A DNA stretch of 64,000 bases, from IMG/VR virus record IMGVR_UViG_2571042447_000001; one strand, given 5' to 3'. The stretch's first letter is position 1. Each line of letters begins with the position of its first letter. This document shows, piece by piece, positions 5,401-40,376 of the stretch. The position numbers and the translations under genes were made by a program. The notes beneath the pieces were generated by a model. The model made no database searches. It was not told the origin of the DNA and saw only the letters and a program-made list of their open reading frames with translations. This DNA comes from a virus.

Positions 5401-7250
5401 CTGCATGAAATTGTGCAGTTGCGACTTACCGTTTTCGTCGATGGTGGTGCGCATCGAGTGGATCATTTCGGCGAAATTTCCGGTCCCCTCCTCGAAAGCA
5501 CCGGTGATAGAGGGGAGGAAATCCGATCCGACGGCGGAGAGGTCCAGTAGCGCAGAACCGAGATTGCCGAGACCATCCAGCAATGGCCCCAACGCTTCTG
5601 CCGTGTTGGTGAGGATCTGCGAGATGTCGTCCTTGACACCATCTGTCATCAGCCAATCCATGGCCGATTTCAGTTTGGTGTTCAACACGTCCGCCAGCGC
5701 CGTCAGACCGTCCGTCAGGATCGGCATGTAGGTGCCGCCGAGCTCCGAGAACTTCTGCCCCATCCCGTCGAACAGCGCGTCCTGTACCGAGAACCGGAGT
5801 TCCTTCCAGCGTCGGACATTCCGCGTGTCATCTCGACGAACTGCCGTGCATTCGGCGAGAGGTTCGCGAGCGCCTCGTTGTACTTCTCGAGGGACGGCGA
5901 TCCTGCTGCCATGGTGTCGTTCAGGTTCTGCTGAGCGACCGCCACGTTGTCGAGTGCCCGCTCAATCCCTCTCTGCGACTCAGCGACTCGATCCTGCGCA
6001 TCGACGATCGCTTGCTTCGAGTCGACGACACGGTCATCGGCGTCCACCACTGCCTGTTGAGCAGCGACGACCTGGTCCGCACCTTCGACGCCCTTGGCGT
6101 TGACGTCAGCGACCTCGGCCCGGAGATCCTGGTTCGCCTCGCGGACCTCCGTCAGACGCTGGACCTGCTGGCGGTAGGCGAGATCGGCCCTGCGTAGCTG
6201 GGTCGGGGTCGTATCGCCGGAGCTTCGGGCTTCGACCAGTCGTTCCCAGGACTCCTGAACCCCGAGTAGCGCGTCCTCTTCGTCGAGGGAACTGCGCTTG
6301 AGGGCGAGGTTCATGTCCTCGATCTGCTCGGTTGCGGCCTTGCGCGCCTGCGTGAGCGACTTCTGTGCGAGTTCCGCGTCCGCCACCGCGCGACGGTTGT
6401 TCTTCTCCGCAGACTCGACCTCACGCAGTGCTCGTGTGTGGCCCTTCTCTGCCTGCTCCACCGCGTCGATCGCGTCGGCAAGAGAGCGCTGAGCGGCCTC
6501 GGTCTGCTTCGCTGCGGCTGCCGACTCCTTCGCGGAGTTCTTGGCCGCTTCCTTGCCTGCCTCGAAGGCGTCCTTGATGCCGGTGGCACCGACTGCGATC
6601 GTTGCGAAGGTCGCGGCGGCAGCAGCACCCATCGCGGGGAGCAGTGCAACGACCCCTGCTGCCTGGACGAGTTGGCCGATGAGCGGTACCAACGACACTG
6701 CACCCAACGCGACCAAAGCGACCTTCGCCAGACCTGCACCGGAAGCAATGCCACTGAGAGCTGCTCCGGCACCGCCACCGGCGCCGCCACCTCCACCACC
6801 GGCAGGGATCGGCGGCATGCCACGAATCAGCGCCTCGAGCGCCAATACCTGTGCGGTCAGAGCTGCGACCTGAGTCATCGCCGCACCTGTGTCGATGTCC
6901 AGGTTCATGTGGACGTCTCTGATCGATGCCCGGAACGCCTGCATTTGCGCATGTGCCCTGGTCAGGTCCAGATCGGCGCGAACGGTGACGTCGGCTTCCA
7001 TCCCCTGCAACTGGGTACGTACGCGATTACGCAGCCCCGTGAGATTCGGGGTGATGTCGACCTCGACTGCCGGCATGTTCCGGGTACCGTTCCGCACCCG
7101 CTGGTGGAATCCGGCAAGGTTGGGCTCGACCTGAACAGTTGCGTCGACGCGACGCGAATTGACGAGGAATCGCAGTCGCTCGTGGAAGTTCGCCGATAGC
7201 TCTGGTTCGACAATCAGCCGTGCGGATCCCGCGTTGTAACTGTCGGCCAC
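2434..7250 (-). CDS. Tape measure protein with C-terminal peptidoglycan-hydrolase motifs; apparent 1-nt frameshift near 5803
   Basis: ORFs 5715-7250 and 2434-5763 join if one base is restored (GMSDA-WKELRFSVQDALFDGMG). Long Ala/Gly-rich helical sequence; SLT-like RESGGNPNAINDWD and YHGKGGAVDI...HWDHVH motifs. Confidence 0.9.
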
Positions 7251-13029: not shown

Positions 13030-13101
13030 TTGATGCGGCAGGGGTCGAACCTGCGACTCGCCGGTCAGGAACCGGTTGCTCTCCGGGTGAGCTACGCACC
13101 A
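13030..13101 (-). tRNA. tRNA-Arg(CCT)-like gene, no encoded CCA
   Basis: Cloverleaf: acceptor TGGTGCG/CGCATCA, D arm GCTC-ACCCGGA-GAGC, anticodon arm CCGG-TTCCTGA-CCGG, T arm GCAGG-TTCGACC-CCTGC. Confidence 0.6.
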
Positions 13102-28059: not shown

Positions 28060-28595
28060 TCATGCGGCATCAACTTCGGCGAGGATGCGAGCGATGTCAG
28101 GGGCGAAGTAGTTCGGGCCTTTGAGGATCTTGCCGTCGGCGCGGTAGATCGGCTTACCGTCGAGGCCGAGTTTGCTCATGTTCGATGCGTGAACTTCGGT
28201 GAACACGGCAGCGAACGGGATGCCCGCTGTGTCGGCGTGGGTCCGGACCTGGACCTGGATGACGGAGAGCGCGAGGTGTGCTCGATGAGTGTGCGTGCGT
28301 TGCGGTACTTTTCGACTGCGTCGTCGAGAGTTCCGTCGAAGGTTTTGTTCGCCCAGTACGGCAGACCGTGCACCCACATGGTGCCGTGTGCGATGTACGC
28401 GATGTCGGCGAGCGCGTCTGCGATTTCGATGCGGTCGTTTGCGGCCTCGGCTGCTCGTAGTTCGTCGTATTCCTCGAGGAGCAACCGGATGCGGAGTTCG
28501 CGGGTTTTCTGGTCGCGCCAGGTCGGCATCAACGCGACGGGGTGGCCGAAGGCGCGGTGGAACTCGGCGACGAGGAGATGTTGGTCGGCGCTCAT
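28060..28595 (-). CDS. MazG-like nucleotide pyrophosphohydrolase (apparent frameshift near 28280)
   Basis: VAEFHRAFG, LLLEEYDEL, IADALADIAYI, EVHASNMSK and DGKILKGPNY motifs. Confidence 0.8.
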
Positions 28596-29185
28596 GCTGT
28601 TGCTCTTTCTACGATCATGTCGACGACGGTTTCGATGTTGACCGGCGTGAGGTTCCAGGCGTCGAGTCCGACGTGCAGGGAGCGGGGGCCGGTCCACTGC
28701 TCGGTGCAGTGCAGATGGCCGTGTGCGAGGAAGTCGATGCCGTTATCGTGCAGTCGCACTTCCGGGAACCTTTCGATCTGGCCGCGATCGCCAGCTCCGA
28801 AGTATGGAAAGTGGGACAGCCAGAGTCGGTGCCCGGCCGCGCGTCGGTAGGCGAACGGCTGGATCGACGCGAACACTTCTCCGAAGATCCCTTGCCGCGT
28901 GTAGGCCTTCCGGTGCATCGGGTGCACGGAATCGTGGTTCCCTGCAACGAGATGCATTGTGAAGAACGGGGTGAACTGTTGCAGTTGGTCGAGTGCTGAC
29001 CGTTCGGACCCGGAGCCGCCGCTAGAGAGGTCACCGCAAATCCACAGGTGATCGTTTCGGTTGAGTGTGGTGGCGATGTTCGACAGGATTGTTCGGTCGT
29101 GCTCGTCGATGCTGTCGAAGCCGCGGAGTTTCGCGACCTTCGGATGTGCGAGGTGCAGGTCCGCGGTGAGCCAGATGTTGCTCAT
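28592..29185 (-). CDS. Calcineurin-like metallophosphoesterase
   Basis: DLHLAH, GD, GNHD, LSHFP and HGHLH motifs. Confidence 0.9.
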   Translation of the reverse strand: MSNIWLTADLHLAHPKVAKLRGFDSIDEHDRTILSNIATTLNRNDHLWICGDLSSGGSGSERSALDQLQQFTPFFTMHLVAGNHDSVHPMHRKAYTRQGIFGEVFASIQPFAYRRAAGHRLWLSHFPYFGAGDRGQIERFPEVRLHDNGIDFLAHGHLHCTEQWTGPRSLHVGLDAWNLTPVNIETVVDMIVERATA

Positions 29186-30366: not shown

Positions 30367-30635
30367 GGCAGTTCCGAGACGTGGATGATGTGCCCGGCAC
30401 TGCCGAGGTGGCCGTAGACAACTTCGTTATCGACTGGCAGTCCTGAGAACCCCGCGCGCATACCGTAGTTCATGGCTGCGAAATTGCCGTCAGCGACCAT
30501 CCAGGACATTCCGGCGGCGCGGTCCCACCAGTCTTCGATCCAGTACTCCCCTGCCCCGATCCCGGGGATGTCGATGGTGACGGCGGTCCCGGCTTGGGGG
30601 TGGCGGTCCGGGTGGATCGTTGATGCTGCAGTCAT
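30363..30635 (-). CDS. Hypothetical protein
   Basis: 90-aa ORF (YWIEDWWDR) with coupled overlaps. Confidence 0.65.
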   Translation of the reverse strand: MTAASTIHPDRHPQAGTAVTIDIPGIGAGEYWIEDWWDRAAGMSWMVADGNFAAMNYGMRAGFSGLPVDNEVVYGHLGSAGHIIHVSELP

Positions 30636-31297
30636 GATTCCGTCTTTCCCAGGTAGTAGGGGTCACCGGTGAGCGGGGTCAACCCGGCCGGGAACTGAGT
30701 CAGGTCGGCACCGCCCTCGTGATGGGAGGCAAGGGCTTTCGCGCAGTCCCATTGGTTGCCGGATGCACCGCTCTCCGATGCAAGGGCGTTGGCAGCGTCT
30801 TCGTCGCCGTCGGCGAGAACTGCTGCGAGGCGGCAGATCATCAGTTCGTAGCCCCACCCGTCGAGGTCAAACCGTTCGCCGCCATTCGTGCGGAACCGTG
30901 ACAGTCGTTCGCGTAGCCAGTCCGGCAACGCTGCTTCCTGTTCGGTCCACGTCTCCCGACAGGACTCGAGAGTCCGGCGCCGTTCGTCCTGGAAACCGGC
31001 AACCATCGTGTTGTGCTCGTCGGCGAGCTGTTGATCGGTCTTACGCATGAGCCAGAAGTCCCCGGCGCGGAGTCCGGTGACGGTGGAGCCGAGTACTGTC
31101 TCCAGCTCGTATGTGTGACCGACCATCGGAATTCCCTCGCAGTCTGCGACTTTGAGTCCGAAGACCATGCTGTCTCCGCCGCAGCGAATCCAGCCAGACT
31201 CCGGATCAATGTCTACTGCGTCGAGGGTTACCGGTTGGAGGTCTCGGAGTTTCGCCGACCAGTCCGCGGCGGTCGACATCGCCATCAGAACGGCCAC
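30632..31297 (-). CDS. Hypothetical protein
   Basis: 221-aa ORF directly downstream of the TROVE gene. Confidence 0.65.
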   Translation of the reverse strand: MAVLMAMSTAADWSAKLRDLQPVTLDAVDIDPESGWIRCGGDSMVFGLKVADCEGIPMVGHTYELETVLGSTVTGLRAGDFWLMRKTDQQLADEHNTMVAGFQDERRRTLESCRETWTEQEAALPDWLRERLSRFRTNGGERFDLDGWGYELMICRLAAVLADGDEDAANALASESGASGNQWDCAKALASHHEGGADLTQFPAGLTPLTGDPYYLGKTES

Positions 31298-32892
31298 GAT
31301 GTGTTGGCGCCACGCTCGAGGAGCGGGATCATCGCGAACATCTGGTCGGTCAGACCACCGAAGGTGTACCGATTACGGGTCCCTGACGAGGCATGACCGT
31401 ATCGGTATCCCGCGAGGTTCGCGGTGAACAGCGGCACAGGCTTCGGGAGCAATGCGCCAACGTCGCCATAGCTTGACTGCTCATCCGTGAGGATGACGAC
31501 GCGGTCGTGCCCGTCGAAGTGCCGTTTGATCGCGCCCGCCGTGTCGGTGCCACCGTTGAGGAAGTAGCCGTCCTTGCGCCAACGCTCGATGCTGCGGAGC
31601 ACCGATTCTCCTGCGCGCTGGGGGAACACCTTCGTCGGCACTCCGTAGTAATTGGACGAGAATGAGACGACGTCGGCGTCTGCCGCGCGGGCAGCGAGAG
31701 AAAGCCCGAAGACCACGGCCGCGTCCCACCGCATGAGGGAACCGTCCTTCGAGAAACCAGAGTTCATCGAACCCGAGGTGTCGACCAGAACCAATGTTCG
31801 GCCGGGAAGCTCAGGGATCGACGAGAGCGACGCGTCGAGGGCCTTCTCGAGCGACCATCCCCATCGCAGAGACGGTGCTGCGTTGTAGGCAGAGAGGAAG
31901 CGCATCGGGAGTTGGCGGGATTTCGCGACCTGCTCGGGGTCGGCGAGGCGCGCGCAGATGCCGGCGGCGACTTCATCGGAGACCCCGGCCTGGTCGAAGT
32001 TGCGGAGGTTCCGCAGCAGCGCCATGTACCCCATCGACGGGATGATCGCTTCCCACATCGCGGCCGTCCACGGTCCGTTGATCAGGGACGGGATCTGCTC
32101 CCAGGTCATTCCTGCAGCGGCGAGCGCGGTGGATGCGTTGTCGGTGATGTCGTTCGGGGTGAAGAGGAGGTCGACGGCCTGCTTCGGGGTCAGCGCCTTC
32201 ATGGCTGCGTTTTCTCGCAGCATGAGTAGCGACTCGGGGATCGTGAGGTCTTCGACGCCGAGTCGGGCGCCGACGAGGTGGGTGAAGAGGTCGCTCTGCC
32301 ATTCGGCTTTGGGGGCGGCGTGAGTCAGACGGATGACGTCGGCGAAGCGGACACTGTGAGATGCGGTGTCGTACTTGATGGCAGACCGCTCGGTGTAGAG
32401 GCGCGTGGCGGCGTCGCCGACACCGCGCTTGACCGGCTGCGGGAGGTTGCGGCCATAGTTCGTGTGCCAGTATGCGAGGAATTCGCCTGGTTCGTCCGCG
32501 CGCTGCAGCACGGAATTGATGATCTGCCTGTTGCCACCGGCCAGGCCGGCTGCGAGGCGGGCGTGGACGACTTCTGCCGCGAGGACGAGGGAGGCTGAAC
32601 GCATGTTCGCGGAGTTGCGGAGCCATCCGGCGAAGCGTGTGAGCCAGAGGTCGGGGTCCGGTTGCGCGGCGAGTGTGCGGATCAGTTCGCCGAAGCGGTT
32701 ATCGCGTGAGGCGGCGGATTCGTAGAACGTCTTCTCACCGACCATGTTGGTCACTGCGAGGAGGAACAGTTCGGACTGGGTGTCACGCGCGTATCCGGCT
32801 GCGCCTTCGTGGGTCCGCCCGGATGGGTGGCGGTCGGTGGTGATCGGATGTCGTCCGGTTGCTCGTGTTCCGGGGGTGTTGAACTTGGTCAT
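31285..32892 (-). CDS. rsr: Ro60/TROVE-domain RNA-binding protein with C-terminal vWA domain
   Basis: SELFLLAV, MRSASLV, RADEPGEFLAYW, MTWE, MGYMALLRNLRN and PMRFLSAY motifs; vWA DTSGSM MIDAS and GGTD, ILTDEQ. Real start is ATG 32892 (GGAGA RBS); the ORF-track extension overlaps the ncRNA array. Confidence 0.92.
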   Translation of the reverse strand: MTKFNTPGTRATGRHPITTDRHPSGRTHEGAAGYARDTQSELFLLAVTNMVGEKTFYESAASRDNRFGELIRTLAAQPDPDLWLTRFAGWLRNSANMRSASLVLAAEVVHARLAAGLAGGNRQIINSVLQRADEPGEFLAYWHTNYGRNLPQPVKRGVGDAATRLYTERSAIKYDTASHSVRFADVIRLTHAAPKAEWQSDLFTHLVGARLGVEDLTIPESLLMLRENAAMKALTPKQAVDLLFTPNDITDNASTALAAAGMTWEQIPSLINGPWTAAMWEAIIPSMGYMALLRNLRNFDQAGVSDEVAAGICARLADPEQVAKSRQLPMRFLSAYNAAPSLRWGWSLEKALDASLSSIPELPGRTLVLVDTSGSMNSGFSKDGSLMRWDAAVVFGLSLAARAADADVVSFSSNYYGVPTKVFPQRAGESVLRSIERWRKDGYFLNGGTDTAGAIKRHFDGHDRVVILTDEQSSYGDVGALLPKPVPLFTANLAGYRYGHASSGTRNRYTFGGLTDQMFAMIPLLERGANTSWPF

Positions 32893-32929: not shown

Positions 32930-33073
32930 AGAGTTGATGCCGAGTAATGAGGTTGGGGTGCCGCTGAGGGGTCCGTTACTCTGCCAGTTGAGCTACAGCA
33001 GCCGGGGCTGCTGACGGGATTTGAACCCGCAACACACGAAGTAGCGGTACTCCTTCGCACCGGCATCAACTCT
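32930..33073 (-). ncRNA. Y RNA (YrlA-like) unit A with permuted tRNA-like domain
   Basis: Terminal stem AGAGTTGATGCCG; 5' CCGGUGCGAA...UACUUC; T arm GCGGG-UUCAAAU-CCCGU; closed stem CAGCAGC/GCUGCUG; D arm GCUC...GAGU; 3' CUCGG. Confidence 0.8.
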
Positions 33074-33085
33074 GTGAAGTTGTGG

Positions 33086-33222
33086 CTCCCGAGGATGGGG
33101 TGGGACGCAGGACGTGATGCACTAGGCCGCTTGTGCGTACCAGTCGAATCATGTTCGGCTGGGAGGGATTTGAACCCCCGTCTTCTGATAGAAGAAGTAT
33201 CCGCATCCCTTCGCACCGGGAG
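33086..33222 (-). ncRNA. Y RNA (YrlA-like) unit B with permuted tRNA-like domain
   Basis: Stem CTCCCG/CGGGAG; same 5' and 3' motifs; T arm GGGGG-UUCAAAU-CCCUC; D-like GCAC-AAGCGGCCUA-GUGC. Confidence 0.75.
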
Positions 33223-33236
33223 GTGTGAAGTGTGTG

Positions 33237-33309
33237 GCTCCCGAGGAAATGGGCTCGGTGTCGGCAGATTTCACCCAAAGAAGTAGCCGGACCGATTCGC
33301 ACCGGGAGC
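33237..33309 (-). ncRNA. Short Y RNA unit C (no tRNA-like domain)
   Basis: Stem GCTCCCG/CGGGAGC; CCGGUGCGAA...UACUUC and CUCGG are conserved. Confidence 0.65.
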
Positions 33310-33323
33310 GCGAAAGTTGTTGT

Positions 33324-33468
33324 GAGTTCCGAGTAATGGTTGCGGTGAGGGTGACGTAGGCGCTCTAGCCAACTGAGCTACACCGGATGCAGATCCGGTG
33401 ACGGGATTCGAACCCGCGACATCCCCATTAACAGTGGAAGTAACCCTCGGTGCTTCGCACCGGAACTC
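33324..33468 (-). ncRNA. Y RNA (YrlA-like) unit D with permuted tRNA-Asn-like domain
   Basis: Stem GAGTTCCG/CGGAACTC; CUGUUAA...GUCGCGGG-UUCGAAU-CCCGU; closed stem CACCGGA/UCCGGUG; UAGCUCAGUUGGCUAGAGC. Confidence 0.8.
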
Positions 33469-33492
33469 TATTGAGTTGTAAGAAAAGTTGTG

Positions 33493-33564
33493 ACACCGAG
33501 TAAAAATGCCGGGCGACAGTGTATTTCGAAGAGGAAGTAACTGCCTGTGGGCTCGCACCGGTGT
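33493..33564 (-). ncRNA. Short Y RNA unit E (no tRNA-like domain)
   Basis: Stem ACACCG/CGGTGT; CCGGUGCGAG...UUACUUC and CUCGG. Confidence 0.6.
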
Positions 33565-33600
33565 GGTGACGTGATCGAGACTAACCGATGAATGTCTCGA

Positions 33601-33621
33601 TGTCTAGCGTCGCACTAGATA
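33601..33621. promoter_or_regulatory. Palindromic site TGTCTAG-N7-CTAGATA upstream of the Y RNA array
   Basis: One of six or seven copies of TRTCTAN-N7-NTAGAYA in the window. Confidence 0.55.
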
Positions 33622-33629
33622 CCCAACAC

Positions 33630-34295
33630 TTAGCGGATGATTGTGGCTACACCTGGGTCGATTCCGTCCAGCGGGTCGCAACCCAACGTGCGGGCAAGCC
33701 ACATCAGGCGGTCCAAACCCCACTCGTGCCCGCAAGCGACGCATGAAGCACCTGAACGCGATACCTGCAGGACCGGTACCCGAACGTGCTCACCGTCCGA
33801 ATCGGTCCTCGTGACATGCGTTTCACCGCAGGCCGGGCACGCCGCCGCCAACGTGAAGCGGTTGCGCCCCGCGATCAGTTCTTCCGCACTCTCGACCCAT
33901 GTACGGATCTCCATCGCCGCAGCCTGCAACCACACCGCATCCTGCGGGCGCCATGACCAGTCCGCCAGATAGGCGAGCCGCGTCGCGGTGCCGCCGTCCG
34001 AGCCCGGCGCCCACGCTGTGACAGTGTTGTCCACCAGGACAATCCAGTCCAAGCCGTCGACCCAGACTGGTGGGAGTGAGCGGGCCACTCCCCCGTGAGC
34101 TGTGCCCTGCTGTCCTGCAAGGTTTTCGGTCATTTCTGCGTACAGGGAACCCGATGTGCAGACGATCCGGTTTCCGTTGTCGTCGTTTTTGATGTCGATG
34201 CGGGGTCCGGTGAGTAGTTGCACTGCGTCGTCGAATGCGCGCCTGGCGGCGTGCAGGCTTTCGTCGTCAGTGCGGTGGTTCGGTGTGGTCGCCAT
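33630..34295 (-). CDS. Conserved actinophage hypothetical protein with C-terminal CxxC...CxxC
   Basis: CPACG...CVACGHEW; family often found at the early/late boundary. Confidence 0.7.
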   Translation of the reverse strand: MATTPNHRTDDESLHAARRAFDDAVQLLTGPRIDIKNDDNGNRIVCTSGSLYAEMTENLAGQQGTAHGGVARSLPPVWVDGLDWIVLVDNTVTAWAPGSDGGTATRLAYLADWSWRPQDAVWLQAAAMEIRTWVESAEELIAGRNRFTLAAACPACGETHVTRTDSDGEHVRVPVLQVSRSGASCVACGHEWGLDRLMWLARTLGCDPLDGIDPGVATIIR

Positions 34296-34547
34296 GGTCA
34301 AGAGAGCTCCCTTGGTCGTGCGGTTGCTGCGCGGCAGTGATGTGTTTCAGGAGGGCAAGGGTCGCTCCGATGTTCAGGTCGGGGCATTGTCGGTTCTGGT
34401 GTGCGAGTCGGACGCAGACGAGAACTTCACCGCGGGGACTTCGGACGCATTCGTCGGGGTGCAGGATGAGCGGTCGAGTCGCGGTGGCGGTGGTGATCAG
34501 GCCACCGACGCCGTAGGGCTGTTCGGTCATGGTGGGTGTGCGAGGTG

Positions 34548-38033: not shown

Positions 38034-38592
38034 GGCGTACCCGCCGGTTGTGTCGGCGCGTGATCGGCGCTGCCCACATCGGCGGTGTGGGCGATGGACG
38101 TGGAAGCGCCCTCTCCTGCGGTGTTCGGGGGTCCGGCTCCGGCTCCGGCTCCGGCGCGAATGTCGTCGGAATTTGCTGAAACAGACCTGTGGCCGGCCGC
38201 TGCTGAAGCAGGCCGATGCCGAGATCGACCTCCAGCCCTAGGAGCGCGTCCCGAAGTATCTCCCCCAGGAGTTCCGTCACCGACACCGGAGGGACGAGCA
38301 GGTCGATCAAGTTGATTGCATGTGTTCTCGGAACGATGGACCGGGTTGGTCCGATGAAACCGGAACCGGGACAGAGAACTTCACTGTCATCGTCTGCGTA
38401 GCGATAGTCCTCGTCGTAGGCGACCTGCGCAGCCATCCTTTCCATGCGCGCCGTGATCTTCAGTCCATGCCATTCTCGGCCGCAGTGCCAGCACCGTTCT
38501 TGGTTGACGTTGTGGTCGTATCCGGACCTGCTGTCGTAGGCGCTGAGTTGTTCGTCGACGAGTGCATCGATTTCGTCGATGATGTCGCTCAT
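38023..38592 (-). CDS. Hypothetical protein
   Basis: MSDIIDEIDALVDEQL...CWHCGREWHG; coupled start. Confidence 0.55.
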   Translation of the reverse strand: MSDIIDEIDALVDEQLSAYDSRSGYDHNVNQERCWHCGREWHGLKITARMERMAAQVAYDEDYRYADDDSEVLCPGSGFIGPTRSIVPRTHAINLIDLLVPPVSVTELLGEILRDALLGLEVDLGIGLLQQRPATGLFQQIPTTFAPEPEPEPDPRTPQERALPRPSPTPPMWAAPITRRHNRRVRHGR

Positions 38593-39368
38593 TTCGTGTC
38601 CCACCATTCTCGGTAGGTCGATACGAGCCACGAGTCGATCTGTGCGCGGTCTGGCTGCTTCGGGTAGTCGGCGGTTCGCGATAGTTGCATCAACTGCGAT
38701 TCGAGTTCCGCTGCCCGGTCGAGCGCTTCGAACTGTGTGTGTCCACCGTTGCGGAGTTCGGTCAACCATGCGCGGTCGCCAGCGGGCATCGGTAGCGTGA
38801 TTTTGCCTTCGGTCAACAGTTGCACGCCCTGAATGCCAAGCCTGACCATGTGATACGCGAATTTGGTGTCGAATCCGTAGACGTCGATCAGTTCGGGTCG
38901 GTTCGTGTGCTTCTTGCCTCGGAGGCCGAGCATCTGTTCACGCTGCGACTTCAGATATCCGGCGAAGCGGAAGGCTGACTGCCGTGAGACGAACCGTTCG
39001 GGGTGCGCCTGCAAGTCCTCGCCGACGTACGTGTTCAGGACCAGTTCGTGCGGTGGGATGAACATGAGCAGTAGCACGGTCGGATTCCCCGCCTCGGCTA
39101 GTCGCGCCCACTTGCGAAGTGAGTACACGACCAAGTCGAGATCACCGGCACCTGATCGGACACCCTCGGGCTGGGTTCGGTACTGGTATTGCTCGAACTT
39201 GCTGACGCCGATGACGAACTCGGGCGGTTCGATGCAAACACCCATCTCGTCTCTGTCGTCGTTGCCGGTCGTGACGCCGTGGAGTCCTGACCCGACTTGG
39301 CCTCGCAGGACTGTGTTGGAATCGGCGATCGCCTTGAATTTCGGTTCACTGTGAGCGATTTCAGCCAT
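38589..39368 (-). CDS. Pol-beta-superfamily nucleotidyltransferase (RlaP/Nuc-transf-like)
   Basis: VGSGLHG...DDRDEMGV, DLDLVVYSLRKW, GNPTVL and DTKFAYHMVRL motifs. Confidence 0.85.
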   Translation of the reverse strand: MAEIAHSEPKFKAIADSNTVLRGQVGSGLHGVTTGNDDRDEMGVCIEPPEFVIGVSKFEQYQYRTQPEGVRSGAGDLDLVVYSLRKWARLAEAGNPTVLLLMFIPPHELVLNTYVGEDLQAHPERFVSRQSAFRFAGYLKSQREQMLGLRGKKHTNRPELIDVYGFDTKFAYHMVRLGIQGVQLLTEGKITLPMPAGDRAWLTELRNGGHTQFEALDRAAELESQLMQLSRTADYPKQPDRAQIDSWLVSTYREWWDTK

Positions 39369-39369
39369 T

Positions 39370-39999
39370 TCACACGCACCCGACCTGTCGGATGGCGTCG
39401 TAGCAGGCTTTGAGATGCCTGGCGTCGGCGAGCGCGTTATGCGCTCCGCTTTCCTGCACCGGCAACGCCAACGACTGCGTGGAACGTGCGACGACGTGTC
39501 CGACGAGCTGCTGTAAATCGTTCGTGAACATCGGAATTCCGTGCGGGAGCGCGATCATCGGACCGAAAAGCTGCGCCAGCGCGACGTGGTCGTAGGCGGC
39601 GTAGTCTGCCCAGAGTTCGACGTCGGCACGTACCTCGTCCCCTGAGGGTTGAAGGATAAAATCCCGCACTTCGTCCGCGATGACCGTCTTGTGTTTGACT
39701 TCCGGCGCTTCGGTGTCGATCGCTCCGAGTCGGTAGTACAGATCCGTTGCCAGTGGCGCTTGCGCTGGTGGCCTGAATTGCCTGGCACCGAGGATGAGTT
39801 CCTCGTGCTGTGTCAGGGCACGGGTGGGTAGCGACGGCCAAACGTTGTCCCGGAGCCACGTCGATTGCAGTATCCGATCTTGCGATACGTCTTGATTGAC
39901 TGCGTAGTACTCGCGGCCGTCGTCGGCGACGATGCCGATCGAGATCAGTTCGATGATGTGGCCGTCGTCGATGAATTCGGTGTCGTAGAAGTACTTCAC
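39370..39999 (-). CDS. 3'-5' exoribonuclease, DEDDh DUF5051/Rv2179c-like
   Basis: MKYFYDTEF...LISIGIV..DGREYYAV, LWADYAAYD and HNALADARH motifs. Confidence 0.88.
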   Translation of the reverse strand: MKYFYDTEFIDDGHIIELISIGIVADDGREYYAVNQDVSQDRILQSTWLRDNVWPSLPTRALTQHEELILGARQFRPPAQAPLATDLYYRLGAIDTEAPEVKHKTVIADEVRDFILQPSGDEVRADVELWADYAAYDHVALAQLFGPMIALPHGIPMFTNDLQQLVGHVVARSTQSLALPVQESGAHNALADARHLKACYDAIRQVGCV

Positions 40000-40376
40000 G
40001 TGTGAACCTCCTTGGTGGCCAGAAGGATGAGGCGGGATTTCGGTATCCGGTTTGCGCAGCGGATTTCGTTGGGCGCGGTTCCGTAGAACGGGAGTACGAA
40101 GATTTCGTCGCTGCGATCGAGTCGGACTTGCCAAAGATCCCACGACGGAATGTGTTTCATCCATCGCATGCCAGCGGAGTACCGCCAGGCGGTCGCGGCG
40201 TCCGCGCTCATGCACACCATCGGTCTGGCGTCACCGGCCCCGGCTTCGTCGAGGCCACCGACTGTGATCCCGGATCCGACTGTCGGTTTGGAGCCGGGAC
40301 GTAGGCCGTGGCGTGTGATGGATTTGCGTCGGTCGGTCGGCGCCCAGTGGTAGAGGTCCGGCAGATGCAGTGTCAT
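39996..40376 (-). CDS. Small ADP-ribosyltransferase/Tpt1-like fold protein
   Basis: LYHWAP...SITRHGLRP, VCMS and NEIRCANRIP resemble the H-S-E/H-H-h ART strand pattern. Confidence 0.5.
   Translation of the reverse strand: MTLHLPDLYHWAPTDRRKSITRHGLRPGSKPTVGSGITVGGLDEAGAGDARPMVCMSADAATAWRYSAGMRWMKHIPSWDLWQVRLDRSDEIFVLPFYGTAPNEIRCANRIPKSRLILLATKEVHT

What the first reader, a model, noticed from the sequence alone, without database searches (positions are those of the whole stretch)
32930..33564. Five-unit tandem Y-RNA array feeding a phage Ro60/Rsr gene
Seen: five consecutive stem-closed units directly upstream of, and co-oriented with, the TROVE-vWA gene. Each has 5' CCGGUGCGA(A/G)..UACUUC and 3' CUCGG and ends next to a CACAAC/CACAC-UU(U)C-like spacer (unit A has CAUCAACUC). 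Units A, B and D (137-145 nt) carry a circularly permuted tRNA-like domain (T arm, loop-closed acceptor-like stem, D arm); D retains a tRNA-Asn-like CUGUUAA. Units C and E (about 72 nt) lack this domain. Established: bacterial Rsr binds Y RNAs, and YrlA RNAs mimic tRNA. Inference: a diversified, processed polycistronic set of tRNA decoys or adaptors in a phage. They could absorb host anticodon nucleases or tether different RNA enzymes to Ro. This copy number and long/short mix seems unusual.
Basis: partly seen in the sequence, partly recalled or inferred. Interest (0 to 1): 0.82.

Follow-up and report, generated by a model that had tools for sequence, protein, structure and literature searches.

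The report
Five Y RNAs before prophage Ro60
A prophage of a soil actinobacterium carries five small "Y RNA" genes, three of them tRNA mimics, directly in front of its Ro60 (Rsr) gene; this is a real but ordinary example of a known RNA-protein pairing, since related phages carry similar arrays of one to six units.

Summary
On the minus strand, 33564-32934, five head-to-tail units lie 41 nt upstream of a TROVE+vWA (Rsr/Ro60) gene. Each unit has GGUGCGA(A)G, then UACUUC, then a 3' CUC. A unit-specific stem closes each unit.

- **Long units:** A, B and D (136-145 nt) contain a T arm, a closed acceptor-like stem and a D arm. This is the YrlA layout.
- **Short units:** C and E (72-73 nt) lack that domain.
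- **Rfam:** YrlA scores only 36-38 bits against a cut-off of 69.
- **Comparative support:** 56 distinct units from 19 related loci keep the motifs invariant while the stems covary.

The claim that the copy number and the long/short mix are unusual fails. My motif-and-stem scan found 1-6 such units upstream of rsr in every related locus examined, usually 3-4. Three cultured actinophages carry 4-5, unannotated or mis-annotated. Earlier notes of this scan report such arrays on other DNA, up to ten units.

One feature deserves follow-up. The hairpin after UACUUC looks like an anticodon loop (CU-NNN-AA). Six of the 12 substitutions separating this array from a 98%-identical relative fall in two such loops.

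The decoy idea remains untested. Verdict: new member of a known kind, modest interest.

The parts
33493..33564 (-). Unit E: short Y RNA (72 nt), first in the array. The 5' motif reads GGUGCGAG, a 1-nt deletion against GCGAAG in relatives.
   Evidence: Motifs and fold. Deletion seen against G001 and G002 and RNA-run contig X11.
33324..33468 (-). Unit D: long YrlA-type Y RNA (145 nt). It has an anticodon-like hairpin UUCCA-CUGUUAA-UGGGG, a T arm, a 7-bp closed acceptor-like stem and a D arm.
   Evidence: Rfam YrlA 38.2 bits, E 1.9e-6, below the cut-off of 69. ARAGORN calls tRNA-Asn(gtt) at 33392-33464. tRNA model 28.0 bits against a cut-off of 29. Consensus fold.
33237..33309 (-). Unit C: short Y RNA (73 nt), GGUGCGAAU ... 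CUACUUC ... CCUC.
   Evidence: closing stem recovered by RNAalifold on 18 short units.
33086..33222 (-). Unit B: long Y RNA (137 nt) with a divergent tRNA-like domain (T arm with a G-U pair, 9-bp closed stem, atypical D arm) and the hairpin UCUU-CUAUCAG-AAGA.
   Evidence: No Rfam YrlA hit, even at E<=10.
32934..33069 (-). Unit A: long YrlA-type Y RNA (136 nt), last before rsr. It has no anticodon-like hairpin and a 7-bp closed acceptor-like stem.
   Evidence: Rfam YrlA full-length match, 35.8 bits, E 9.6e-6.
31285..32892 (-). rsr: Ro60/Rsr-like RNA-binding protein, 535 aa, with TROVE and vWA domains.
   Evidence: Pfam TROVE 3.6e-18 and VWA_2 9.4e-6. 39-48% identity over the full length to 'Ro-like RNA binding protein' of Streptomyces, Gordonia and Arthrobacter phages. 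Best solved structure is Thermus phage phiLo Ro60, 9KOP/9L5Y, E 1e-26.
33428..33434 (-). 7-nt anticodon-like loop of unit D (CUGUUAA). It reads AUCGCAA in the 98%-identical relative G002.
33185..33191 (-). 7-nt loop of the unit B hairpin (CUAUCAG). It reads CCAUGAG in G002.
33070..33085 (-). Spacer B-A (CCACAACUUCACAGAG), one of four inter-unit spacers; the others are 33469-33492, 33310-33323 and 33223-33236. They carry a CACAAC(U)UUC-type word that also follows units in distant relatives. It is possibly a processing signal.
   Evidence: 'next' columns. Function is inferred only.
33565..33629 (-). Intergenic leader upstream of unit E with two inverted repeats (33619-33603 and 33600-33575). Possible promoter, operator or upstream terminator.
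   Evidence: Read from the sequence. No sigma-70-type promoter or intrinsic terminator was found. In RNA runs the X11 contig ends at 33598, those of X17 and X18 end inside unit E (33543, 33547), and a separate X16 contig starts at 33568.

Best explanation
The region encodes five Y RNAs of a prophage Ro60/Rsr ribonucleoprotein system: three YrlA-type tRNA mimics (A, B, D) and two short YrlB-like RNAs (C, E).

The proposed mechanism has four steps, all inferred. First, the array is transcribed in the same direction as rsr, probably as one precursor. Second, the precursor is cut in the conserved CACAAC-type spacers into separate RNAs. Third, each RNA docks on the phage Rsr ring through the shared helix formed by its 5' GGUGCGAAG and 3' (UUA)CUC plus a unit-specific outer stem. 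Fourth, the variable 'heads' decide what Rsr is coupled to or kept from. These heads are a tRNA elbow made of T and D arms, and/or an anticodon-like hairpin. By analogy, the partners would be host PNPase or another tRNA- or RNA-handling enzyme, so that the phage redirects host RNA decay or surveillance during infection.

Shown here: the motifs, the covarying structure, the linkage to rsr across many loci, and presence in RNA libraries. Inferred: transcription as one unit, processing, Rsr binding and the effector.
For: 1. Five motif-defined units against 0.01 expected by chance. All fold with a closing stem.
2. In 56 distinct units from 19 loci, GGUG(C)G and CUC are invariant. Outer stem positions show 4-6 different Watson-Crick pair types. 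Position 6, which was not used for selection, pairs in 49 of 56 units. With shuffled partners, 4.0 of 6 positions pair against 5.9 observed.
3. RNAalifold recovers the closing stem on 18 short units, with 5 of 8 pairs compensatory. On 27 long units it recovers the full YrlA layout: closing stem, connecting stem, T arm, closed acceptor-like stem and D arm, with 25 of 33 pairs compensatory.
4. Sub-threshold Rfam YrlA matches fall on A and D, and upstream of rsr on the same strand in nearly all relatives.
5. Published precedent:
   - M. smegmatis YrlA and YrlB lie upstream of rsr, are processed from one precursor and are bound by Rsr (PMC4201824).
   - Thermus phage phiLo Ro60 binds two upstream Yrls and forms a complex with host PNPase (PMC12135203).
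   - phiLo Ro60 is also the best solved-structure match of this Rsr.
6. The array is held in at least 12 soil metatranscriptome runs. In run X17, a 630-nt contig bounded by adapters covers 32939-33543 at depth 245, against 0-32 for flanking phage DNA.
Against: - No unit reaches the Rfam YrlA gathering score. B, C and E get no YrlA match at all.
- The strict published motif GNCGAA has U in place of the first G.
- No promoter or terminator was recognised.
- In three other RNA runs the whole phage region is covered at similar low depth, so DNA carry-over or general lytic transcription cannot be excluded. The X17 peak could be a PCR jackpot.
- Rsr binding, processing and the effector are untested here.
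- Unit E carries a 1-nt deletion in the docking motif and may be impaired.
Confidence: 0.78

Rival explanations
1. The RNAs are baits for enzymes that read tRNA anticodon loops, such as host anticodon nucleases, toxin RNases or tRNA-modifying enzymes. The hairpin after UACUUC displays a copy of an anticodon loop. Rsr holds or protects the bait, or brings a nuclease to what it catches. This is a special case of the Y RNA reading, not an alternative to their identity.
For: - In 42 of 56 units a hairpin with a 7-nt loop follows UACUUC. About 19 of these loops read CU-NNN-A(A/G/C), where under 1 is expected by chance: CUGUUAA four times, CUUCCAA twice, CUCUCAA twice, and others.
- Orthologous D-type units share the same stem, the spacer between hairpin and T arm, and the T arm. 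They differ only in the loop triplet, GUU, UGU, GGU or CGC, with U33 and A37-A38 kept.
- 6 of the 12 substitutions between this array and its 98%-identical relative lie in two 7-nt loops, which make up 14 of 631 nt (binomial 1e-7).
- The published M. smegmatis YrlA probe implies a CUUCUAA loop at the same place.
Against: - No anticodon nuclease, RtcB, Rnl-type ligase or Tpt1 was found in the near-complete related provirus.
- The four adjacent changes in D may be one replacement event, so the statistic overstates independence.
- Unit A and several relatives lack the hairpin.
- In the published YrlA model this hairpin sits at the variable-arm position, not the anticodon position (PMC4201824; 10.1101/312249).
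- No experiment bears on it.
Confidence: 0.17
2. The array is mainly a cis-acting structured leader of the rsr mRNA. Rsr binds its own leader to set its own translation or stability, and free small RNAs are by-products.
For: The array and rsr are co-oriented, and only 41 nt separate unit A from the ATG. No terminator is recognised between them. RNA-run contigs bridge unit A and the start of rsr.
Against: - Five to six diversified units with conserved tRNA-like heads are far more than a leader needs.
- In M. smegmatis the homologous RNAs are processed and stably bound by Rsr (PMC4201824).
- In X17 the array contig is about 8 times deeper than the rsr 5' contig.
- Contigs cannot show single transcripts.
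Confidence: 0.08
3. The units are decayed or rearranged tRNA genes, the remnant of a phage tRNA cluster, without a function of their own.
For: ARAGORN calls a tRNA-Asn in unit D. The tRNA model scores 28 bits there. In cultured actinophages, rsr sits inside tRNA clusters.
Against: - The non-tRNA motifs (GGUGCG, UACUUC, CUC) are invariant, and the closing stems covary, over loci whose Rsr proteins are only 45-60% identical.
- The order of T arm, closed stem and D arm is permuted relative to tRNA.
- The D-arm region does not align in the tRNA match.
- Two units have no tRNA parts at all.
Confidence: 0.02

Closest known systems
Mycobacterium smegmatis YrlA and YrlB (Chen et al. 2014, PMC4201824)
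   Same: It is an actinobacterial system. The RNAs lie upstream of rsr on the same strand. There is a long tRNA-like RNA of about 147 nt plus a short one, processed from one precursor and both bound by Rsr. A YUAY word is followed by a hairpin with an anticodon-like loop, and the acceptor-like stem has 7 bp (as in units A and D here).
   Different: There are five units here instead of two, in a prophage rather than a chromosome. The docking word is GGUGCGAAG rather than GNCGAA. [quoted passage not shown]
Thermus phage phiLo Ro60 with Yrl1 and Yrl2 (PMC12135203; PDB 9KOP, 9L5Y)
   Same: It is a phage-encoded Ro60 with Y RNA-like genes directly upstream. There is a CGAA-containing docking region in a 5'-3' stem. 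It is the best solved-structure match of this Rsr (E 1e-26).
   Different: There are two units there, and no tRNA-like domain is reported. The host phylum is different. The proteins align over only part of their length.
YrlA, Rfam RF02553 (S. Typhimurium YrlA; structure in bioRxiv 10.1101/312249)
   Same: Both have the T arm, closed acceptor-like stem and D arm in the same order. Both have a connecting stem that leads to the Ro-binding helix. Both have a conserved UA after the 5' strand.
   Different: Scores here are 36-38 bits against a cut-off of 69. S. Typhimurium YrlA is said to lack an anticodon loop, while units B and D here carry a 7-nt-loop hairpin before the T arm. The Salmonella genes belong to the rsr-yrlBA-rtcBA repair operon, and no RtcB was found in the related provirus.
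Deinococcus radiodurans Yrn1/Yrn2 and metazoan Y RNAs
   Same: The 5' and 3' ends pair into a bulged helix that carries a GGU-N-CGA word: GGUCCGA in animals, GGUGCGA here. Several different Y RNAs serve one Ro protein.
   Different: The order of the tRNA-like parts differs. Those genes are dispersed or differently arranged, and are not a tight tandem array in a phage.

Membership tests
Bacterial/phage Y RNA (YrlA/YrlB class) | Encoded within about 4 kb of a Ro60/Rsr (TROVE) gene, on the same strand | tested here: met
   The array ends 41 nt upstream of the TROVE+vWA ORF on the same strand. Units of the same build lie upstream of rsr in every related locus examined.
Bacterial/phage Y RNA (YrlA/YrlB class) | 5' and 3' ends pair into a stem that carries the Ro-binding word (GNCGAAN0-1G; core CGAA) | tested here: met
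   All five units close by a stem. Four have UGCGAA(G/U), and E has UGCGAG. The CGAA core is present in four of five. The first G of the strict motif is U. The stem is supported by covariation in 56 units.
YrlA (Rfam RF02553) | Score at or above the Rfam gathering threshold (69 bits) | tested here: not met
   There is no match at gathering. D scores 38.2 bits and A 35.8 bits, with E around 1e-6 to 1e-5 for the 1.5-kb search. B, C and E have no match. Relatives score 31-54 bits.
YrlA (Rfam RF02553) | tRNA-like domain in the order T arm, loop-closed acceptor-like stem, UA, D arm, joined to the Ro helix by a connecting stem | tested here: met
   Met for A, B and D. The RNAalifold consensus on 27 long units has 33 pairs, 25 of them with compensatory changes. 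Not met for C and E, which are YrlB-like.
YrlA (Rfam RF02553) | Conserved YUAY word after the 5' strand | tested here: met
   (C/U/A)UACUUC is present in all five units and in most units of relatives.
Bacterial/phage Y RNA (YrlA/YrlB class) | Stable small RNA bound by Rsr in vivo | not testable with these tools
   The only indication is that the array is held in at least 12 metatranscriptome runs. One contig covers exactly the array at 8- to 80-fold the depth of the flanks. No binding data exist.
tRNA (RF00005) | Cloverleaf with D arm, score at or above 29 bits | tested here: not met
   Unit D scores 28.0 bits with the D-arm region unaligned. ARAGORN's tRNA-Asn call uses the Y RNA 5' strand as the acceptor strand.
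Ro60/Rsr protein | TROVE (HEAT-repeat ring) domain followed by a vWA domain | tested here: met
   TROVE 66 bits and VWA_2 26.7 bits, the latter just under its cut-off of 27. Full-length similarity to annotated phage Ro-like proteins. PDB 9KOP at E 1e-26. The NCBIfam Rsr equivalog scores only 19 bits against a cut-off of 900, so it is a distant member.

The most novel reading that the evidence does not exclude
The hairpin after UACUUC is a displayed copy of a tRNA anticodon loop (Y-U-NNN-A-A). Its triplet is swapped between otherwise near-identical phages. The array would then be a set of exchangeable baits or specificity tags, held on Ro60, aimed at enzymes that read anticodon loops. Examples of such enzymes are host anticodon nucleases, toxin RNases and modification enzymes. 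That would give phage Ro60 particles a role in the tRNA-centred arms race between phages and hosts.
Probability: 0.18. Interest if true: 0.75.

Novelty: new member of a known kind. Interest (0 to 1): 0.3.

Why it matters
Ro60-Y RNA particles are studied in human autoimmunity and in bacterial RNA decay, but what phage-encoded ones do is open. This locus adds little on its own, because multi-unit Y RNA arrays in front of rsr are the rule in actinobacterial (pro)phages.

It does make three practical points:
- The standard Rfam model misses these RNAs. Genome annotations call them tRNAs or small hypothetical proteins.
- The family has a clear, covariation-supported consensus from which a proper model could be built.
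- The anticodon-like loops change faster than the rest of the RNA. That is a concrete, testable lead to what the variable heads recognise.

Tried and rejected
- **Near-identity DNA search of phage records.** Nothing was found. The distant mode gave only short matches to tRNA-like parts.
- **The window's own genome.** It is not held. I used a 99% copy on a 5.7-kb contig of a Streptomyces sp. assembly and a 95% provirus record instead.
- **Promoter and terminator scan.** Nothing was found.
- **Supplementary tables of Chen et al. 2014.** These would list copy numbers per species, but they are not held. The Annual Review on bacterial Ro60 is not held either. I therefore could not check what maximum copy number is in print.
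- **Metagenome scan for more alleles of unit D.** No match. The viral scan gave six.
- **RNA runs.** All are kept as contigs, so RNA ends, strand and level could not be read. Three of four runs show no enrichment of the array over the rest of the phage.
- **RNA-repair context.** RlaP and an RNase AS-like exoribonuclease lie 5-7 kb upstream, and a metallophosphoesterase lies downstream. RtcB, Rnl-type ligase and Tpt1 are absent from the related provirus. I therefore do not claim a repair operon.
- **The gene just downstream of rsr (30632-31297).** It is not conserved beside rsr beyond the closest relative, so it is not treated as a partner.
- **Enrichment of U at the third 'anticodon' position.** I considered this as a t6A-type signature. 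The counts are about equal for U and C, so I dropped it.

Full report
**What is there.** The feature lies on the minus strand. Read 5' to 3' from 33564 down to 32934, the sequence holds five units in tandem. An ATG at 32892 follows 41 nt later and opens a 535-aa ORF. The ORF has a TROVE domain (E 3.6e-18) and a vWA domain. It is 39-48% identical over its full length to proteins annotated 'Ro-like RNA binding protein' in Streptomyces, Gordonia and Arthrobacter phages. Its best match among solved structures is the Ro60 of Thermus phage phiLo (9KOP/9L5Y, E 1e-26). The window is phage DNA: large terminase, portal, tape measure and endolysin are all recognised. The nearest records are a 99% copy on a small contig of a Streptomyces sp. 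assembly and a 95% copy in an 84-kb provirus record.

- The pattern CCGGTGCGA-N10-25-TACTTC occurs five times in 64 kb, all in the array, against 0.01 expected.
- Five CTCGG words alternate with them.
- Each unit folds so that its two ends pair.
- The unit limits are E 33564-33493 (72 nt), D 33468-33324 (145), C 33309-33237 (73), B 33222-33086 (137) and A 33069-32934 (136).
- The outer part of the closing stem differs in each unit, and the changes are compensatory.
- A, B and D contain a T arm, a loop-closed stem of 7-9 bp and a D arm, in that order. C and E do not.
- Unit D has the loop CUGUUAA, and ARAGORN calls a tRNA-Asn there. The tRNA model reaches only 28 bits and leaves the D-arm region unaligned. 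That call borrows the Y RNA 5' strand as an acceptor strand, so unit D is not a tRNA gene.
G001 and G002 and the one RNA-run contig that covers the site (X11) read GCGAAG.

**What it is.** Rfam finds nothing at its curated thresholds. With relaxed thresholds the YrlA model matches unit D (38.2 bits) and unit A (35.8 bits, full length). The cut-off is 69. That would be thin evidence alone, so I collected relatives of the Rsr protein from viral and genomic contigs. These are 45-60% identical in protein and come from IMG/VR phages and from Micromonospora, Nocardia, Actinomadura, Nonomuraea, Actinocrispum and Amycolatopsis genomes. Nearly all have sub-threshold YrlA matches just upstream of rsr on the same strand.

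A simple search asked for GGUG(C/U)G followed within 200 nt by CU(C/U), with at least five pairs between the flanks. It found units of the same build in every locus examined, 56 distinct ones in all. Across them:
- GGUG-G and CUC never change.
- The outer stem positions show four to six different Watson-Crick pair types.
- The sixth position, which played no part in the selection, pairs in 49 of 56 units.
- Pairing each 5' arm with another unit's 3' arm gives 4.0 instead of 5.9 pairs out of 6.

RNAalifold, run without any structural hint, returns the closing stem for 18 short units, with 5 of 8 pairs showing double changes. For 27 long units it returns the complete YrlA architecture: closing stem, connecting stem, T arm, closed acceptor-like stem and D arm, with 25 of 33 pairs showing double changes. 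The units are therefore Y RNAs of the YrlA kind (A, B, D) and of the short YrlB-like kind (C, E). They are not decayed tRNA genes.

**Is the array unusual?** No. The motif-and-stem scan gives these unit counts upstream of rsr:

| Locus or group | Units |
|---|---|
| This window | 5 |
| Its two close relatives (G001, G002) | 5 each |
| L020 (Micromonospora) | 6 |
| L013 | 4 (6 raw hits; two dropped as spurious or nested) |
| L008, L015, L023, L026 | 4 each |
| L009, L011, L012, L021, L022, L032, L033, L035, L037 | 3 each (beside rsr) |
| L014, L025 | 2 each |
| L017, L018, L024, L027 | 1 each found by this strict scan |

Long and short units are mixed in most of the arrays. The four single-unit counts are probably underestimates: three of those loci carry an additional UACUUC mark or a YrlA match elsewhere upstream.

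Cultured phages have the same arrangement with a slightly different docking word, GAUGCG or GCCCRG. Streptomyces phage GiJojo has five UACUUC marks and four recognisable units. Gordonia phages VanLee and Neville have four each. In VanLee one unit is annotated as tRNA-Arg(tct). In Neville the array is covered by five small 'hypothetical protein' genes. Earlier notes of this scan report the same kind of array on other DNA in more than a hundred genomes, with up to nine and ten units. My own counts agree that five is within the normal range.

**What is known.**
- Chen et al. (2014, PMC4201824) found YrlA-like sequences next to Ro60 genes in 254 bacteria and 22 phages.
- The same paper showed that M. 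smegmatis YrlA (about 147 nt) and YrlB lie upstream of rsr, come from one precursor and are bound by Rsr. YrlA there has a 7-bp acceptor-like stem, is cut by RNase P and receives CCA.
- The crystal structure of the Salmonella YrlA head is a close tRNA mimic (10.1101/312249).
- In 2025 the Ro60 of Thermus phage phiLo was shown to bind two Y RNA-like RNAs encoded just upstream and to form a complex with host PNPase that damps its activity (PMC12135203).

The present locus is a further member of this kind. Units A and D have exactly 7-bp closed stems followed by UA and a D arm. An RNase P nick as in M. smegmatis is therefore plausible, but that is inference.

**Expression.** The array is held in contigs of at least 12 soil metatranscriptome runs from many studies. 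In run X17 a 630-nt contig bounded by adapter sequence covers 32939-33543, almost exactly the array. Its depth is 245, while flanking phage contigs have depth 0-32. In three other runs the whole 19-kb region is covered evenly at low depth, so there the signal may be phage DNA or general lytic transcription. Contigs cannot show RNA ends, and the X17 peak may be a PCR artefact. I count this as weak support for a stable RNA.

**A feature worth following.** In 42 of 56 units the conserved UACUUC runs into a hairpin with a 7-nt loop. About 19 of these loops read CU-NNN-A(A/G/C), the pattern of a tRNA anticodon loop. The published probe for M. smegmatis YrlA implies CUUCUAA at the same place.

Units orthologous to D in six other phage contigs keep the stem (CCA/UGG), the five-base spacer and the T arm. 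Their loops read CUGUUAA (two contigs, plus this window), CUUGUAA (two), UUGGUAA and AUCGCAA. Only position 32 and the triplet change.

Between this window and its 98%-identical relative, 6 of the 12 substitutions in the 631-nt array fall in the two 7-nt loops of D and B. The binomial probability is 1e-7, but the four adjacent changes in D may be one event. RNA-run contigs show the same two alleles of the D loop.

It does not show what reads the loops. In the published YrlA model this hairpin occupies the variable-arm position.

**Context.** RlaP (a nucleotidyltransferase of RNA-repair neighbourhoods) and an RNase AS-like 3' exoribonuclease lie 5-7 kb upstream. A metallophosphoesterase and a TetR regulator lie downstream. 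The near-complete related provirus has no RtcB, no Rnl-type RNA ligase and no Tpt1. A repair operon of the Salmonella type is therefore not present.

**Verdict.** The identification as Y RNAs feeding a phage Rsr is supported. The claim of unusual copy number is not. The decoy function is untested, though the variable anticodon-like loops give it a concrete handle. This is a new member of a known kind. Interest is modest (0.3). The bolder bait reading has a probability of roughly one in five or six.

Noticed in passing
L028:1204-1275 (Gordonia phage VanLee); L030:473-1286 (Gordonia phage Neville): Public annotations overlie Y RNA units. In VanLee, 'tRNA-Arg(tct)' sits on a unit whose hairpin loop is CUUCUAA. 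In Neville, five small 'hypothetical protein' CDSs (gp86-90) cover the four-unit array upstream of the Ro-like gene.
   Followed up: partly
L024:2024-2115 (Actinomadura roseirufa contig): A 69.9-bit match to the tRNA-Sec model (cut-off 47) lies upstream of an rsr homologue, next to a Y RNA unit at 2316-2451. It could be a real tRNA-Sec or a long-arm tRNA-like Y RNA.
   Followed up: no
window 33550-33556 (minus strand, unit E): The docking word reads GCGAG here, but GCGAAG in both close relatives and in the RNA-run contig that covers the site. This is a 1-nt deletion in the most conserved motif. It may be a real mutation that weakens unit E, or an assembly error.
   Followed up: partly
window 33469-33492, 33310-33323, 33223-33236, 33070-33085; same places in L008-L037: The word (C)ACAACUUCA(G) follows the closing stem of most units even in distant relatives, where the stems themselves have changed completely. 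It looks like a conserved processing or recognition signal.
   Followed up: partly
window 33575-33619 (minus strand): Two inverted repeats, TCTAG-N7-CTAGA and TCGAGAC-N12-GTCTCGA, lie between the upstream gene and unit E. They may be an operator or the upstream gene's terminator. No consensus promoter was found.
   Followed up: no
window 38589-39368, 39370-40215, 28592-29185 (all minus strand): An RlaP-family nucleotidyltransferase (E 5e-40), an RNase AS/Rv2179c-like 3' exoribonuclease domain protein and a metallophosphoesterase lie in the same transcription direction as the array. The related provirus has no RtcB, Rnl ligase or Tpt1.
   Followed up: partly
window 33630-34301 (minus strand); L028:206-853: The gene just upstream of the array (DUF7341+DUF7340) has a 30%-identical homologue in the same position upstream of the VanLee array, where it is annotated as a ribbon-helix-helix DNA-binding protein.
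   Followed up: partly
L004/L005 (G001 contig C15, about 6327-7119): The Streptomyces sp. assembly that holds the 99% copy also holds a second, diverged rsr locus (66-68% DNA identity over parts of the gene). Its upstream region was not examined.
   Followed up: no
window 1-64000; L016: G+C is about 62% throughout. This is low for Streptomyces, and the only near-identical genomic copy is a 5.7-kb contig in a 1340-contig assembly with 6% contamination. The host named by that record is therefore doubtful.
   Followed up: no
window 13030-13101 (minus strand): A good tRNA-Arg(CCT) gene (51.9 bits) lies among the head and packaging genes, far from the Y RNA array.
   Followed up: no
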